Positions 821 through 14,468 of a stretch of 14,468 bases of DNA are shown here, in pieces. The notes beneath the pieces were generated by a model. It worked only from the letters and a program-made list of their open reading frames with translations, ran no database searches and was not told the DNA's origin. Origin of the DNA: a virus. Made by a program: the position numbers and the translations under genes. Each line of letters begins with the position of its first letter. Positions within the stretch are counted from its first letter, which is position 1. The stretch lies in UHGV virus genome UHGV-0284478. One strand, written 5' to 3'.

Positions 821-2120
821 TCTCCCGCATATTGCCAGTATGGCCTTTAATGAGCCGCTGATGCTTGAACCCGCCTATGCGCGGGTTTTCTTTTGTGCGC
901 TTGCAGGCCAGCTTGGGATCAGCCGCCTGACGGATGCAGTATCCGGCGACAGCCTGACTGCCGGAGAGGCACCCGCGGCGCTGGCGTTATCCGTTGATGA
1001 TGACGGACCACGACAGGCCCGCAGTTATCAGGTCATGAACGGCATCGCCGTGCTGCCGGTGTCCGGCACGCTGGTCAGTCGGACGCGAGCGCTGCAGCCG
1101 TATTCGGGGATGACCGGTTACAACGGCATTATCGCCCGTCTGCAACAGGCTGCCAGCGACCCGATGGTGGACGGCATTCTGCTCGATATGGATACGCCAG
1201 GCGGGATGGTGGCAGGGGCATTTGACTGCGCTGACATCATCGCCCGTGTGCGTGACATAAAGCCGGTATGGGCGCTGGCCAACGACATGAACTGCAGTGC
1301 AGGTCAGTTGCTTGCCAGTGCCGCCTCCCGGCGTCTGGTCACGCAGACCGCCCGGACAGGCTCCATCGGCGTCATGATGGCTCACAGTAATTACGGTGCT
1401 GCGCTGGAGAAACAGGGTGTGGAAATCACGCTGATTTACAGCGGCAGCCATAAGGTGGATGGCAACCCCTACAGCCATCTTCCGGATGACGTCCGGGAGA
1501 CACTGCAGTCCCGGATGGACGCAACCCGCCGGATGTTTGCACAGAAGGTGTCGGCATATACCGGCCTGTCCGTGCAGGCTGTGCTGGATACCGAGGCTGC
1601 AGTGTACAGCGGTCAGGAGGCCATTGATGCCGGACTGGCTGATGAACTTGTTAACAGTACCGATGCGATCACCGTCATGCGTGATGCACTGGATGCACGT
1701 AAATCCCGTCTCTCAGGAGGGCGAATGACCAAAGAGACTCAATCAACAACTGTTTCAGCCACTGCTTCGCAGGCTGACGTTACTGAGGTGGTGCAAGCGA
1801 CGGAGGGCGAGAACGCCAGCGCGGCGCAGCCGGACGTGAACGCGCAGATCACCGCAGCGGTTGCGGCAGAAAACAGTCGCATTATGGGGATCCTCAACTG
1901 TGAGGAGGCTCACGGACGCGAAGAGCAGGCACGCGTGCTGGCCGAAACCCCCGGTATGACCGTGGAAACGGCCCGCCGCATTCTGGCAGCTGCACCACAG
2001 AGTGCACAGGCGCGCAGTGACACTGCGCTGGATCGTCTGATGCAGGGGGCACCGGCACCGCTGGCTGCAGGTAACCCGGCATCTGATGCCGTTAACGATT
2101 TGCTGAACACACCAGTGTAA
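801..2120 (+). CDS. C: Prohead protease / capsid assembly protein C (ClpP/SppA-like serine protease family), GTG start
   Basis: GTG at 801 preceded by a strong Shine-Dalgarno GAGGAGGAG (789-797); translation from 801 (TAELRNLPHIASMAFNEPLMLEPAYARVFF…) matches lambda gpC N-terminus; length 439 aa equals lambda gpC; overlaps the end of B by 20 nt. The ORF-track start at 687 is an in-frame upstream Met inside B and is not used. Confidence 0.88.
   Translation: MTAELRNLPHIASMAFNEPLMLEPAYARVFFCALAGQLGISRLTDAVSGDSLTAGEAPAALALSVDDDGPRQARSYQVMNGIAVLPVSGTLVSRTRALQPYSGMTGYNGIIARLQQAASDPMVDGILLDMDTPGGMVAGAFDCADIIARVRDIKPVWALANDMNCSAGQLLASAASRRLVTQTARTGSIGVMMAHSNYGAALEKQGVEITLIYSGSHKVDGNPYSHLPDDVRETLQSRMDATRRMFAQKVSAYTGLSVQAVLDTEAAVYSGQEAIDAGLADELVNSTDAITVMRDALDARKSRLSGGRMTKETQSTTVSATASQADVTEVVQATEGENASAAQPDVNAQITAAVAAENSRIMGILNCEEAHGREEQARVLAETPGMTVETARRILAAAPQSAQARSDTALDRLMQGAPAPLAAGNPASDAVNDLLNTPV
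1515..2120 (+). CDS. nu3: Scaffolding protein Nu3, translated from an internal in-frame start within C (shares C-terminus and stop with C)
   Basis: In-frame ATG at 1515 (MDATRRMFAQKVSAYTGLS…), 714 nt downstream of the C start, which is the same offset I recall for lambda Nu3 within C; nested in-frame arrangement is established for lambda. Confidence 0.7.
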   Translation: MDATRRMFAQKVSAYTGLSVQAVLDTEAAVYSGQEAIDAGLADELVNSTDAITVMRDALDARKSRLSGGRMTKETQSTTVSATASQADVTEVVQATEGENASAAQPDVNAQITAAVAAENSRIMGILNCEEAHGREEQARVLAETPGMTVETARRILAAAPQSAQARSDTALDRLMQGAPAPLAAGNPASDAVNDLLNTPV

Positions 2121-2129
2121 GGGATGTTT

Positions 2130-11273: not shown

Positions 11274-11851
11274 ACACGGCAGCGGAAGCCATTCGCGCCC
11301 TGTCGATGCAGATGCCGGGCTTTCGCCGTCAGATGAACGAAGGCTGGTACCAGATACGTATTGCCGGTGATGACACGGCACCGGAGGCGGTGTATGCCCG
11401 TCTTCACGAACAGCTGGGTGAGGGAACGGTCATCCACATTGTGCCGCGACTGGCCGGGGCCGGAAAGGGTGGACTGCAGATTGTGCTGGGGGCGGCAGCC
11501 ATCGTGGGCTCTTTCTTCACGGCCGGAGGCTCGATGGCGTTATGGGGTACAGCCCTGAGTGCCGGTGGTTTTTCTGCCACCACGATGCTGTTTTCACTGG
11601 GTGCCAGCATGATACTGGGCGGAGTGGCCCAGATGCTGGCCCCGAAGGCAAAAACACCGGATTACCGCGCAACGGATAACGGCAGACAGAACACGTACTT
11701 TTCCTCGCTGGATAACATGATTGCCCAGGGGAACCCGATGCCGGTGCCTTACGGGGAAATGCTGGTTGGCTCCCGCCGTATATCCCAGGACATCAGCACC
11801 CGTGATGAAGGCGGGGGCGGAAAGGTCGTGGTTATCGGGCGGCAGGGGTAA
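11171..11851 (+). CDS. I: Tail tip assembly protein I
   Basis: 226-aa translation (…ARICLHGDLQRFGRRLSLYVNTAAEAIRAL … GNPMPVPYGEMLVGSRRISQDISTRDEGGGGKVVVIGRQG) is recognisable as lambda gpI; overlaps the 3' end of K by 103 nt in another frame, as in lambda. Confidence 0.88.
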   Translation: MATTNAFCLASPPLARICLHGDLQRFGRRLSLYVNTAAEAIRALSMQMPGFRRQMNEGWYQIRIAGDDTAPEAVYARLHEQLGEGTVIHIVPRLAGAGKGGLQIVLGAAAIVGSFFTAGGSMALWGTALSAGGFSATTMLFSLGASMILGGVAQMLAPKAKTPDYRATDNGRQNTYFSSLDNMIAQGNPMPVPYGEMLVGSRRISQDISTRDEGGGGKVVVIGRQG

Positions 11852-11856
11852 AAAGA

Positions 11857-11896
11857 ATAAAAAAATCCCGCAGTGATCGCGGACAGGAACTGCGGG
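11857..11896 (-). terminator. Intrinsic (rho-independent) terminator on the minus strand, convergent with the end of I
   Basis: Minus-strand RNA would read CCCGCAG-(16-nt loop)-CUGCGGG then A-UUUUUUU-AUUCUUUU; stem arms at 11867-11873 and 11890-11896, U-tract complementary to the A-run at 11856-11866 on the + strand. Confidence 0.5.
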
Positions 11897-11955
11897 AGAG
11901 TTACGAAGATTAAGTGTAAGGAATTATTCTTATATCACGACAAAAAAATTAACGC
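11857..11955 (-). ncRNA. Candidate ~100-nt small RNA (moron-like), from the predicted sigma70 promoter to the minus-strand intrinsic terminator
   Basis: Promoter and terminator are in the correct order and spacing on the minus strand; the interval has no ORF with a ribosome-binding site; it lies in an AT-rich island between I and J. Transcript ends are predictions only. Confidence 0.3.
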
Positions 11956-11961
11956 AGAGAA

Positions 11962-11989
11962 ATTATACGCGCCACAGTCAGTGTGTGAA
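11962..11989 (-). promoter_or_regulatory. Sigma70-type promoter on the minus strand: -35 TTCACA, 16-bp spacer, -10 TATAAT
   Basis: Reverse complement of 11984-11989 is TTCACA (5/6 match to TTGACA); reverse complement of 11962-11967 is TATAAT (6/6); spacer is 16 bp; predicted start near 11953-11955. Confidence 0.4.
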
Positions 11990-12062
11990 AATGTGAAGAT
12001 ATTCAGAATTTTTATGCCATTACCGGTTTTAACCAACAGGATTATCGGTGGGCATGAAAGAA

Positions 12063-12097
12063 AACCCCGGTATCTGCTGATACCGGGGTTTCTCTTT
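12063..12097. terminator. Strong 12-bp hairpin with T-rich tracts on both sides (bidirectional terminator-like element) within the I-J island
   Basis: AACCCCGGTATC (12063-12074) / TGCT loop / GATACCGGGGTT (12079-12090); + strand then reads TCTCTTT; on the minus strand the stem is followed by TTTTCTTTC. Confidence 0.45.
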
Positions 12098-12194
12098 AGC
12101 ATGGCAGAAATGTGTTTCATGCTTTTCGGGCGAAGGATATCCGACTTCTGTACGGAATGGCAAGTGGCGGTTAATTTATTCAGGGGAAGGCTGT

Positions 12195-14353
12195 ATGGGA
12201 AAAGGTGGCGGTAAGGCACACACGCCTCGTGAGGCGAAGGATAATCTCAAATCCACGCAGATGATGAGTGTGATTGATGCGATTGGTGAGGGACCGATAG
12301 AAGGTCCGGTGAAGGGACTGCAGAGTATTCTGGTGAACAAAACCCCGCTGACGGACACGGACGGTAATCCCGTGATACACGGTGTGACCGCGGTCTGGCG
12401 TGCCGGGGAGCAGGAGCAGACACCACCGGAAGGCTTTGAGTCCTCCGGAGCTGAAACCGGACTGGGCGTGGAAGTGACGAAGGCAAAATCGGTGACGCGC
12501 ACCATTACGTCCGCGAACATTGACCGCCTGCGGGTTACCTTCGGGGTGCAGTCACTGGTGGAGACCACCTCAAAGGGTGACCGTAACCCGGCAACCGTCC
12601 GCCTGCTGATTCAGTTACAGCGTAACGGTAACTGGGTGACAGAAAAGGACGTCACCATTAACGGCAAGACCACCTCACAGTTCCTGGCCTCGGTGATTCT
12701 GGATAATCTGCCTCCCCGGCCCTTTAACATCCGGATGGTCAGGGAGACGGCGGACAGCACCACGGACCAGCTGCAGAATAAGACGCTGTGGTCGTCATAC
12801 ACCGAAATCATCGATGTGAAACAGTGCTACCCGAACACGGCCATTGTGGGGCTGCAGGTGGATGCGGAGCAGTTCGGCGGCCAGCAGATGACGGTGAACT
12901 ACCATATCCGCGGTCGTATCATCCAGGTGCCGTCAAACTATGACCCGGAAAAACGCACGTACAGTGGTATCTGGGACGGCAGTCTGAAACCGGCATACAG
13001 CAACAACCCGGCCTGGTGCCTGTGGGACATGCTGACTCACCCGCGCTACGGCATGGGAAAACGTCTGGGGGCGGCGGATGTGGACAAGTGGGCGCTGTAT
13101 GCCATCGGGCAGTACTGCGATCAGACGGTCCCGGATGGTTTCGGGGGGACCGAGCCGCGGATGACCTTTAATGCGTACCTGGCACAACAGCGTAAGGCGT
13201 GGGACGTTCTCAGTGATTTCTGCTCTGCGATGCGCTGTATGCCGGTATGGAACGGTCAGACGCTGACGTTCGTTCAGGACCGCCCGTCGGATGTGGTGTG
13301 GCCGTACACCAACAGCGATGTGGTGGTGGATGATAACGGCGTGGGATTCCGCTACAGCTTCAGTGCCCTGAAGGACCGGCACACGGCGGTGGAGGTGAAT
13401 TACACCGACCCGCAGAACGGCTGGCAGACCTCCACGGAACTGGTGGAAGACCCGGAAGCCATACTGCGCTACGGACGCAACCTGCTGAAGATGGACGCGT
13501 TCGGCTGTACCAGCCGCGGTCAGGCCCACCGTGCCGGACTGTGGGTGATAAAGACCGAACTGCTGGAAACGCAGACGGTGGATTTCACGCTCGGGTCTCA
13601 GGGGCTGCGGCACACACCCGGTGACATCATTGAAATCTGTGATAACGACTATGCCGGGATCCTGACCGGCGGACGTGTCCTGTCCATTGATGCTGCCACC
13701 CGCACCCTGACGCTGGACCGTGAAGTGACACTTCCGGAGACCGGTGCCGCCACGGTGAACCTGATTAACGGCAGCGGTAAGCCAGTGAGTGTGGACATCA
13801 CCGAACACCCCGCGCCGGACCGGATACAGGTCAGTACCCTGCCTGATGGTGTGGAGACATACGGGGTGTGGGGACTCTCCCTGCCGTCACTGCGCCGTCG
13901 CCTGTTCCGCTGTGTCTCCGTCCGGGAAAACACGGACGGCACCTTTGCCATCACGGCGGTGCAGCACGTACCGGAAAAAGAAGCCATCGTGGATAACGGT
14001 GCCCGCTTTGAGCCGCAGTCAGGTTCCCTGAACAGCGTCATCCCACCGGCAGTGCAGCACCTGACGGTGGAGGTGAGCGCAACTGACGGCCAGTATCTGG
14101 CGCAGGCGAAATGGGACACGCCGCGGGTGGTGAAGGGTGTGCGCTTCAGTCTGCGCCTGACCAGTGGTAAGGGAACGGATGCCAGACTGGTGACCACCGC
14201 CATCACCGCAGACACGGAGCACCGTTTCAGCGGCCTGCCGCTCGGGGAATACACCCTGACGGTGCGGGCGATAAACAGCTATGGCCAGCAGGGTGAACCT
14301 GCCACCACCACCTTCCGGATTGCCGCACCGGCAGCACCGTCGCGGATTGAGCT
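12195..14353 (+). CDS. J: Host specificity / central tail fibre protein J, N-terminal ~720 codons; 3' portion absent and replaced by an inverted duplication
   Basis: Translation MGKGGGKAHTPREAKDNLKSTQMMSVIDAIGEGPIEGPV … through …TFRIAAPAAPSRIEL is recognisable as lambda gpJ; the frame stays open to the window end but after ~14353 the sequence is the reverse complement of upstream J sequence, so the apparent C-terminus is not genuine J. Confidence 0.85.
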
Positions 14354-14468
14354 GCCGGTGCGGCAATCCGGAAGGTGGTGGTGGCAGGTTCACCCTGCTG
14401 GCCATAGCTGTTTATCGCCCGCACCGTCAGGGTGTATTCCCCGAGCGGCAGGCCGCTGAAACGGTGCT
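14218..14468. repeat. Perfect inverted repeat: arm 14218-14335 is the reverse complement of arm 14351-14468, with a 15-bp spacer (14336-14350)
   Basis: Checked by hand over the full 118 bp of each arm; the right arm runs into the window edge, so the true arm length is unknown. The minus-strand ORF 14227-14424 encodes the same peptide as J for this reason. Confidence 0.9.

What the first reader, a model, noticed from the sequence alone, without database searches (positions are those of the whole stretch)
11852..12194. AT-rich island between tail genes I and J carrying a candidate minus-strand small RNA gene
I ends at 11851 and J starts at 12195, leaving 343 bp of non-coding sequence where I recall only a short gap in lambda itself. 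The interval is compositionally foreign: my hand count gives 33 G+C in 11901-12000, against a visibly GC-rich flank. On the minus strand it has a near-consensus sigma70 promoter (TTCACA-16 bp-TATAAT, 11989-11962) followed about 100 nt downstream by a stem-loop and U-tract (11896-11857), oriented convergently with I. No ORF in either strand has a credible ribosome-binding site or sensible composition. This is the architecture of a phage moron carrying a small regulatory RNA, expressible in the lysogen independently of the late operon. Small Hfq-binding RNAs and anti-sRNAs encoded in lambdoid prophages of pathogenic E. coli have been reported, but I cannot say from memory whether any maps to this position.
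Basis: partly seen in the sequence, partly recalled or inferred. Interest (0 to 1): 0.75.

Follow-up and report, generated by a model that had tools for sequence, protein, structure and literature searches.

The report
Prophage small RNA gene, PasB family

Summary
The interpretation, a moron carrying a minus-strand sRNA, is supported.

- **What it is:** window 11859-11941 (-) is a member of the PasB/EcOnc22 family of Hfq-dependent sRNAs. These sit in the I-J spacer of lambdoid prophages, antisense to the tail genes.
- **Published evidence for relatives:** PasB is 83 nt, Northern-verified, Hfq-dependent, with 37 RIL-seq partners. It is about 100-fold more abundant than genes I and J in an EPEC lysogen. 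EcOnc22 is about 85 nt, Hfq-crosslinked and destabilised in a hfq deletion strain.
- **Membership test:** a covariance model built only from other alleles hits the window locus at 50 bits (E about 1e-8).
- **What is new:**
  - The window allele is only 72% identical to PasB. It would be missed by the BLAST settings of the 2026 PasB survey. It occurs in about 640 of 5426 complete E. coli genomes, never annotated.
  - PasB and EcOnc22-24 are one family, a link the papers I read do not make.
  - All alleles keep a CRP-like TCTGA-N6-TCACA box.
- **Right half (12016-12194):** a separate, exchangeable module with a strong terminator-like hairpin.

Interest is low to moderate.

The parts
11852..12194 (.). 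I-J intergenic spacer, 343 bp. It is composite: an sRNA cassette on the left and a separate 'long' module on the right.
   Evidence: ORF ends. Mosaic structure. Lambda has only 60 bp here.
11859..11941 (-). Mature sRNA by homology, about 82 nt: a PasB/EcOnc22-family allele of the window type.
   Evidence: The published PasB 5' and 3' ends map to 11940 and 11859. A covariance model built without window-type alleles matches 11941..11859 over its full length at 50.1 bits, E 9.8e-09.
11859..11896 (-). Rho-independent terminator and presumed Hfq-binding 3' module. Stem 11896-11890 / 11873-11867, 16-nt loop, then A and U7 (11865-11859).
   Evidence: whole sRNA -18 kcal/mol, z -2.8. The stem and U-tract are identical in PasB.
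11905..11924 (-). Unstructured conserved core UUCCUUACACUUAAUCUUC, the candidate seed. The (G/A/C)UUAAUCUUC part is the best-conserved stretch of the body across alleles.
   Evidence: no conserved structure 5' of the terminator. Zhu et al. place the PasB seed in the single-stranded stretch just upstream of the terminator.
11923..11931 (-). A-rich AAG-AAU-AAU run (three A-R-N triplets), a possible Hfq distal-face site. Other alleles have AAC-AAA-AAC-AAC or AAA-AAU-AAC here.
   Evidence: Read directly from the sequences. The function is inferred from the known A-R-N preference of Hfq (abstract).
11946..11951 (-). Downstream -10-like hexamer TAATTT (TAnnnT). It implies a start at about 11938-11941, matching the published size of the relatives.
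   Evidence: T-A-N3-T is kept in 69 of 69 distinct alleles while N3 varies.
11962..11989 (-).
   Evidence: 11/12 match. At the -10 position, 37 alleles have TATAAT, 14 AATAAT, 7 TATCAT, 2 CATAAT, 2 GATAAA and 2 GTGCAT; 5 have lost it.
11992..12007 (.). CRP-like palindrome, TCTGA-ATATCT-TCACA on the minus strand, a 9/10 match to the TGTGA-N6-TCACA core.
   Evidence: It is one of only 2 matches in the window with up to 1 mismatch (0.39 expected). Both half-sites are invariant in 64/64 alleles that have the promoter block, while N6 has 6 variants.
12016..12194 (.). 'Long' upstream module, exchangeable with an unrelated 'short' module. It includes the J ribosome-binding region.
   Evidence: All four combinations of sRNA body type and upstream module exist. 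Only 38/190 aligned columns are shared with the E2348/69 spacer here. The module hairpin is present in 1445/5426 genomes.
12061..12092 (.). Strong hairpin (10-bp GC-rich stem CCCCGGUAUC, loop of 4) with an A-tract on one side and a U-tract on the other, so it looks like a terminator on both strands. It lies inside a 47-bp indel (12059-12105).
   Evidence: Fold -31.9 kcal/mol, z -6.9 on the minus strand and -30.8, z -5.5 on the plus strand. The indel is absent from L026 and L088. It is not a dispersed repeat.

Best explanation
The left half of the I-J spacer (about 11852-12015) is a self-contained moron.

- **The gene.** It encodes an Hfq-dependent, trans-acting base-pairing sRNA of about 82 nt (11941/11940 to 11859, minus strand). 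It belongs to the PasB/EcOnc22-24 family.
- **When it is made.** It is transcribed in the lysogen from its own promoter, against the direction of the silent late operon. It ends at a Rho-independent terminator with a U7 tail, 8 nt from the I stop codon.
- **How it is likely to act.** The 5' 45-58 nt are unstructured. They carry an A-R-N run and a conserved UCCUU...UUAAUCUUC core. This core is the likely seed that pairs with mRNAs on Hfq.
- **Why this allele may differ.** Its seed region is only about 60% identical to PasB, so its target set may differ.
- **Likely regulation.** A host factor probably controls transcription through the invariant TCTGA-N6-TCACA box. The best candidate is cAMP-CRP acting as a class I activator of the downstream TAnnnT promoter.
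- **The right half.** 12016-12194 is a separate exchangeable module. Its hairpin probably insulates the cassette and J from read-through.

**Shown here:** homology, position, strand, anatomy and the conservation pattern.
**Shown in the literature for relatives:** expression, size and Hfq dependence.
**Inferred:** expression of this particular allele, CRP control, which start site is used, and the seed.
For: - **Homology to PasB.** The promoter block is 49/51 identical and the terminator stem and tail are identical to E2348/69 PasB, which lies between I and J on the antisense strand.
- **Independent model.** A covariance model built from 15 alleles of other types finds only this locus in the window, at 50.1 bits and E about 1e-8.
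- **PasB experiments.** PasB is 83 nt. It was confirmed by Northern blot. Its stability depends on Hfq. It has 37 RIL-seq interactions.
- **Independent expression.** PasB baseMean is 482 and 1082, against 4.8 for I and 15 for J.
- **EcOnc22 experiments.** EcOnc22 is about 85 nt, Hfq-crosslinked and destabilised without Hfq. Its probe maps to the I-J spacers of Sakai Sp15, Sp14 and Sp11 on the antisense strand.
- **Consistent position.** 165 of 192 terminator matches in viral contigs lie between I and J homologues, and all 165 are antisense.
- **Structure.** The consensus fold is a terminator hairpin only; the 5' part is unstructured.
- **CRP-like box.** The half-sites are invariant in 64/64 alleles while the spacer varies. 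The distance to the -10 elements is essentially fixed.
- **Expression pattern.** PasB is higher in overnight LB than in exponential DMEM. CRP-repressed Spot 42 behaves the opposite way.
Against: - No transcript data exist for this allele or this strain.
- The body is only 28/47 identical to PasB, so function and targets cannot simply be transferred.
- No target of any family member has been validated; the function of PasB is still unknown.
- The 5' end of PasB was deduced from coverage and Northern size, not mapped. The start site is therefore open: 11955 followed by processing, or about 11939-11941.
- The CRP centre at -60.5 is one base off the textbook -61.5.
- The LB-versus-DMEM difference fits stationary phase or low oxygen equally well.
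- The Sakai Sp12 spacer (PasB-2 body with the long module) gave no called Hfq peak in Tree et al..
Confidence: 0.85

Rival explanations
1. The RNA works mainly in cis. It is perfectly complementary to the I-J spacer of the late polycistronic mRNA. It could create an RNase III substrate that separates I from J-lom-stf. Alternatively, its convergent promoter could interfere with late transcription. This does not exclude a trans role.
For: The gene lies fully inside the late operon on the opposite strand in all 165 placed copies. Its position directly after the I stop is fixed across alleles.
Against: - The RNA does not overlap the I coding sequence or the J ribosome-binding site, so it cannot directly block translation.
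- PasB forms chimeras with many unlinked core and accessory transcripts on Hfq.
- Late genes are almost silent when the sRNA is abundant.
- Q-modified polymerase ignores terminators and would probably silence the sRNA promoter during lytic growth. This last point is an inference.
Confidence: 0.25
2. The promoter-like and terminator-like sequences are chance features of an AT-rich, non-functional spacer or of a decayed insertion.
For: AT-rich DNA makes -10-like hexamers common.
Against: - The family keeps the box, the TAnnnT hexamer, the core and the terminator across at least 65 alleles, while the sequence between them varies.
- Two independent laboratories detected the homologous RNAs.
- The cassette is found in about 1600 complete E. 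coli genomes.
Confidence: 0.03
3. The spacer encodes a small protein: the 113-aa + strand ORF 11873-12214 or the 94-aa - strand ORF 11935-12219.
For: Frame 0 of the + strand is open across almost the whole spacer. One phage record annotates a hypothetical protein here (H12).
Against: Neither ORF has a Pfam match. The ORFs break in the 91%-identical PPompW spacer, in E2348/69 and in Sakai. Alleles differ by 2-, 4-, 5- and 47-bp indels.
Confidence: 0.02
4. The sRNA is made from the reader's strong upstream promoter (start G11955) as a primary transcript of about 97 nt. It is then trimmed in the U-rich leader to the roughly 82-nt form. On this view the invariant GUUAnnnU(U)n is an RNA processing or Hfq site, not a second -10.
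For: TTCACA-16-TATAAT is an 11/12 match. Most alleles keep a usable -10 at that position. A related sRNA, PasA, is reported to be cut from a longer transcript.
Against: - Two allele groups have lost the upstream -10 yet keep TAnnnT.
- Northern sizes are 83-85 nt, and no longer species is mentioned for PasB or EcOnc22.
- The CRP-like box would sit at -44.5, which is not a standard activating position.
Confidence: 0.35

Closest known systems
PasB (E2348CN_0006) of EPEC O127:H6 E2348/69 prophage PP6. Sources: Pearl Mizrahi et al. 2021, Sci Adv (PMC8550237); Zhu, Shabalina and Storz 2026, bioRxiv 10.64898/2026.05.13.724894.
   Same: Same site (between the I stop and J), same antisense strand, and a nearly identical promoter block (49/51). 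The terminator stem and U7 tail are identical, and the length is about 82-83 nt. Both share the UCCUU...AUCUUC core.
   Different: The body is 28/47 identical, and the terminator loop is 16 nt against 11 nt. Overall identity is 64/89 aligned columns. blastn with word size 28 gives no hit; word size 11 covers only 30% of the query. The survey's stated filters therefore would not count this allele. The module upstream of the promoter is unrelated to that of E2348/69. No experimental data exist for this allele.
EcOnc22/23/24 of EHEC O157:H7 Sakai prophages Sp15, Sp14 and Sp11. Source: Tree et al. 2014, Mol Cell (PMC4104026).
   Same: Same I-J spacer position and antisense strand, and the same architecture. 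They share the GUUAAUCUUC core and the terminator stem. EcOnc22 is about 85 nt, Hfq-bound and destabilised without Hfq.
   Different: A third allele type, with a weaker upstream promoter (TTCCGG ... AATAAT) and a different 5' body (GAUGCCUGAAAAAUAACUCCAUAACG). In the papers I read, these RNAs are not linked to PasB.
AgvB and AsxR anti-sRNAs of EHEC prophages (Rfam RF02702, RF02703)
   Same: They are also prophage moron-borne, Hfq-binding short RNAs expressed in lysogens.
   Different: They lie downstream of PR' next to the Q and moron-CDS region, not in the tail operon. They are 51-60 nt and act by sponging GcvB and FnrS. They show no sequence or Rfam similarity to the window.
CRP-controlled core sRNAs of E. 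coli (CyaR and McaS activated, Spot 42 repressed). This comparison rests on my own knowledge.
   Same: A TGTGA-N6-TCACA-type box upstream of an Hfq-dependent sRNA promoter. The expression pattern of the relative is opposite to that of Spot 42.
   Different: CRP binding and CRP dependence are untested for any PasB-family member. There is no sequence relationship.

Membership tests
PasB/EcOnc22-24 family of I-J spacer sRNAs | Gene lies between the tail genes I and J of a lambdoid prophage, on the strand opposite to the tail genes | tested here: met
   Window position. PasB. EcOnc22-24. All 165 placed copies in viral contigs are antisense.
PasB/EcOnc22-24 family of I-J spacer sRNAs | Sequence and structure homology of the RNA itself | tested here: met
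   A covariance model built from 15 alleles of other types matches 11941..11859 over its full length at 50.1 bits, E 9.8e-09. It is the only significant hit in the window.
PasB as delimited in the 2026 survey (blastn with the 83-nt E2348/69 query, word size 28, query cover above 75%) | Passes that BLAST filter | tested here: not met
   In a local blastn, word size 28 gave no hit. Word size 11 gave only the 25-nt terminator, with query cover 30%. The method is quoted.
PasB/EcOnc22-24 family of I-J spacer sRNAs | Rho-independent terminator with a long U tail, preceded by an unstructured conserved core | tested here: met
   The core (G/A/C)UUAAUCUUC is described.
PasB/EcOnc22-24 family of I-J spacer sRNAs | Expressed as an RNA of about 83-85 nt whose stability depends on Hfq | not testable with these tools
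   This is known only for the E2348/69 and Sakai alleles.
CRP class I-activated promoter | TGTGA-N6-TCACA site centred near -61.5 | tested here: inconclusive
The core matches 9/10 and the right flank TCACATTT is perfect. The half-sites are invariant across alleles. Binding has not been tested.
AgvB/AsxR anti-sRNA family | Located at the PR' moron site, 51-60 nt long, with a conserved 3' region matching RF02702 or RF02703 | tested here: not met
   The window locus is in a different place and has no Rfam match at any threshold.
Any Rfam 15 family | Match at the gathering score | tested here: not met
   There were 0 hits for the window and 0 hits for the E2348/69, Sakai, PPompW and sodC-type loci.

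The most novel reading that the evidence does not exclude
The I-J spacer of lambdoid prophages is a dedicated slot for a hypervariable family of Hfq sRNAs. All members are wired to one host signal, cAMP-CRP, through an invariant TCTGA-N6-TCACA box. Their seed regions diversify and recombine between phages. They also duplicate into arrays of 2-3 copies or become linked to sodC. Each prophage would then add a different carbon-status-dependent regulon to its host. The window allele, found in about 12% of complete E. coli genomes (mostly human, animal and environmental isolates) and missed by the published survey, would be an uncharacterised regulator. One of its targets might be the Shine-Dalgarno region of the lambda-type head gene D, which would imply control of phage late genes or of superinfecting phages.
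Probability: 0.2. Interest if true: 0.55.

Novelty: new member of a known kind. Interest (0 to 1): 0.3.

Why it matters
The element shows that a common, never-annotated regulator sits inside the tail operon of prophages in roughly a quarter to a third of sequenced E. coli.

- About 960 genomes carry PasB proper and about 640 records carry the window type.
- The family has been seen twice under different names without being joined.
- Joining PasB with EcOnc22-24, and adding the window-type allele, enlarges the family.
- The alignment supplies a testable promoter model with a CRP-like box and two candidate start sites.
- It also gives natural seed variants for working out what these sRNAs regulate.

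For genome annotation, the element is a clear candidate for an Rfam family.

Tried and rejected
- **Rfam.** Gathering and permissive searches of the window, and gathering searches of four homologous loci, found nothing credible. The weak hits are generic terminator resemblance.
- **AgvB/AsxR lead.** Rejected, because those RNAs map to the PR' moron site.
- **Genome-contig scan.** The pattern CCCGCAGN{8,20}CTGCGGGATTTTT was too generic.
- **Covariation in the terminator.** Not assessable, because the stem was fixed by the search pattern. All 7 pairs are invariant.
- **Protein-coding reading.** Rejected.
- **Hairpin 12061-12092 as a dispersed repeat.** Rejected. It has a median of one copy per genome, in the same 1445 genomes that hold the long spacer.
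- **Gene D as a target.** There is a 12-bp helix with the gene D Shine-Dalgarno region, and it is the best of 17 start regions. However, 7% of shuffled seeds do as well, and two non-start sites in the window score better.
- **Sakai coordinates.** Positions in the 2014 table are offset by about +139 to +146 from the current record, judged from the AgvB1 anchor. I therefore relied on the probe sequence instead.
- **Literature sequence search.** A full-text search for fragments of the sRNA sequence found no paper.
- **Upstream-extended PasB transcript.** A search of the RIL-seq tables for chimeras upstream of PasB found none, but the tables are truncated in the held copy.

Full report
**The observation.**
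- I ends at 11851 and J starts at 12195, leaving 343 bp.
- G+C in 11901-12000 is exactly 33. The left 164 bp of the spacer are 36% GC against 58% for the window.
- On the minus strand, TTCACA-16-TATAAT lies at 11989..11962, an 11/12 match.
- The hairpin CCCGCAG/CUGCGGG (11896-11890 / 11873-11867) is followed by A and U7, ending at 11859. That is 8 nt from the I stop.
- Lambda itself has only 60 bp between I and J.
- Rfam has nothing here.

**What it is.** The spacer is widespread. All or part of it occurs in 1669 of 5426 complete E. coli genomes and in Stx-converting and other lambdoid phages. It is never annotated.

The decisive lead came from the literature.
- Pearl Mizrahi et al. 2021 list PasB on the minus strand of NC_011601.1, from 1466343 to 1466261, 83 nt long. 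It lies in prophage PP6 between E2348C_1436 and E2348C_1437. Its probe is AATCCCGCAGTGATCGCGGAGCT.
- Those two genes are I (ending at 1466255) and J (starting at 1466496).
- The first 20 nt of the probe match window 11864-11883 exactly.
- In the alignment of the two spacers the promoter block is 49/51 identical. The terminator stem and tail are identical. The body is only 28/47 identical.
- The PasB ends map to window 11940 and 11859.

A second, older name applies to the same family.
- Tree et al. 2014 list EcOnc22 (Sp15; about 85 nt on Northern; destabilised in a hfq deletion) with homologues EcOnc23 (Sp14) and EcOnc24 (Sp11).
- These coordinates fall in the I-J spacers of the three Sakai prophages, on the strand opposite to the tail genes.
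- The table's coordinates are offset from the current record, so I checked the probe. Its reverse complement matches 23 nt exactly (GTTAATCTTCATCGTTCTCTCCC) in the sRNA body of all three spacers.
- Pearl Mizrahi's table names EHEC homologues for PasA and PasD but none for PasB. Zhu et al. 2026 never mention EcOnc. The link therefore seems not to have been made.

**Membership.** I built a covariance model from 15 alleles that exclude the window type: PasB, PasB-2, the Sakai type and others.
- It finds one significant hit in the window, 11941..11859 on the minus strand. The match is full length, 50.1 bits, E about 1e-8.
- The allele fails the operational filter of the 2026 survey (word size 28, query cover above 75%).
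- In a local blastn, word size 28 gives nothing and word size 11 gives only the 25-nt terminator.
- In complete E. coli genomes, PasB proper occurs in 960. The window-type allele occurs at 95% identity or more in about 640 records.

**Anatomy of the family.** Two scans of viral contigs gave about 190 copies and 69 distinct alleles.
- Of 192 terminator matches, 165 could be placed between I and J homologues, and all 165 are antisense.
- Spacer sizes fall into classes:
  - about 240-250 bp, with the short upstream module;
  - about 345 bp, with the long module, as in the window;
  - about 430 bp, with two cassettes;
  - about 857 bp, with a sodC gene plus its terminator followed by the sRNA body;
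  - about 920 bp, with three tandem copies.
- The sRNA body type and the upstream module assort independently, so recombination occurs in the conserved promoter block.
- The consensus fold is the terminator alone. The 5' 58 nt are unstructured and A/U-rich, with a conserved UCCUU...(G/A/C)UUAAUCUUC core.

It is degraded in others (AATAAT, TATCAT, CATAAT, GATAAA, GTGCAT) and lost in the sodC-linked group. The -35 position varies widely.
- Two other elements are invariant.
  - A TAnnnT hexamer 14 nt downstream (window 11951..11946) is kept in 69/69 alleles while its middle varies. It predicts a start at about 11938-11941, which matches the published 83-85-nt sizes.
  - The palindrome TCTGA-N6-TCACA (window 11992-12007) is kept in 64/64 alleles that have the promoter block, while N6 has six variants.
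- The palindrome is a 9/10 match to the CRP core, with a perfect TCACATTT flank. It is one of two such matches in 14.5 kb, against 0.39 expected.
- Its centre is at -60.5 from the downstream start, close to the class I position.
- Its invariance across prophages argues for a host factor rather than a phage repressor. This is an inference.
- PasB is higher in overnight LB than in exponential DMEM, while CRP-repressed Spot 42 is five-fold higher in DMEM. That fits CRP activation but does not prove it.
- The PasB 5' end was deduced, not mapped. Processing of a longer transcript starting at 11955 therefore remains a live alternative.

**Independence from the late operon.** In the EPEC RNA-seq tables pasB has baseMean 482 (activating condition) and 1082 (non-activating). 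I has 4.8 and J has 15.

**The right half.** 12016-12194 is a separate module, unrelated to the E2348/69 spacer (38/190 aligned columns).
- It holds a very stable hairpin at 12061-12092, with an A-tract and a U-tract, so it resembles a terminator on both strands (z -6.9 and -5.5).
- The hairpin lies in a 47-bp indel that two loci lack. It is not a dispersed repeat.
- The short module and lambda's own 60-bp spacer also carry a + strand hairpin with a T-run just before J. A structure at this place therefore predates the sRNA cassette. Its role is not known.

**Rejected or weak ideas.**
- The two ORFs crossing the spacer have no Pfam match and are not conserved.
- The 12-bp complementarity of the seed to the Shine-Dalgarno region of the lambda-type gene D (2114-2125) is the best of 17 start regions. 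Even so, 7% of shuffled seeds reach it.
- The genome-contig scan was wasted on too generic a pattern.

**Verdict.** The element is a diverged, unnamed and unannotated allele of a known, experimentally detected prophage sRNA family. No target or function is yet known for any member of that family. I classify it as a new member of a known kind, with interest of about 0.3.

Noticed in passing
window 14218-14335 and 14351-14468: The last 118 nt of the window are a perfect inverted copy of the preceding J sequence, with 15 nt between the arms. As a result the J reading frame leaves homology after about 14321 and stops at 14459. This looks like a fold-back assembly artefact or a real inversion junction.
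   Followed up: partly
window 12059-12105: The strong hairpin of the long module sits in a 47-bp segment that loci L026 and L088 lack exactly. The segment is flanked by a TTTCT direct repeat, so it is an insertion or deletion inside the module. It is not a dispersed repeat.
   Followed up: partly
L300 3779-4635 (also L302, L217, L228, L256, L259, L264, L268, L271, L277, L286, L291): In one group of phages the I-J spacer is about 857 bp. It holds a Cu/Zn superoxide dismutase (sodC) gene on the sRNA strand, with its own terminator. A window-type sRNA body follows directly, but it lacks the CRP-like box and the upstream -10.
   Followed up: partly
L254 324-1026; L250 454-702; L246 4420-4675; L219, L231, L260, L278 upstream of the box: Some spacers carry two or three tandem, diverged copies of the sRNA cassette. 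Others carry an upstream related cassette with a different terminator stem (CTCCCG...CGGGAG).
   Followed up: partly
window 2114-2125: sRNA nucleotides 17-28 (AUUCCUUACACU) can form a 12-bp helix with AGUGUAAGGGAU. That sequence covers the Shine-Dalgarno region of the lambda-type head decoration gene D, whose true start is at 2130. It is the best of 17 start regions, but 7% of shuffled seeds do as well.
   Followed up: yes
L310 1246-1305 (lambda 15445-15504): Lambda's own 60-bp I-J spacer contains a + strand hairpin plus T-run (AACCGCCTGCGGGCGGTTTTG). It occupies the same relative position as the hairpins of the short and long modules.
   Followed up: no
L309 1004-1344 (Sakai prophage Sp12): Sakai Sp12 carries a PasB-2-type body with the long module. 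However, no EcOnc peak is listed for it in Tree et al. Table S2.
   Followed up: no
window 1899-1914: This is the only other match in the window to TGTGA-N6-TCACA with one mismatch (TGTGAGGAGGCTCACG). It lies inside a head-gene region.
   Followed up: no
Sakai NC_002695.2 against the Tree et al. 2014 coordinates: Coordinates in the 2014 supplementary table are shifted by about +139 to +146 relative to the current RefSeq record near 1.94 Mb, judged from the AgvB1 anchor. EcOnc positions cannot be read directly onto the current sequence.
   Followed up: yes
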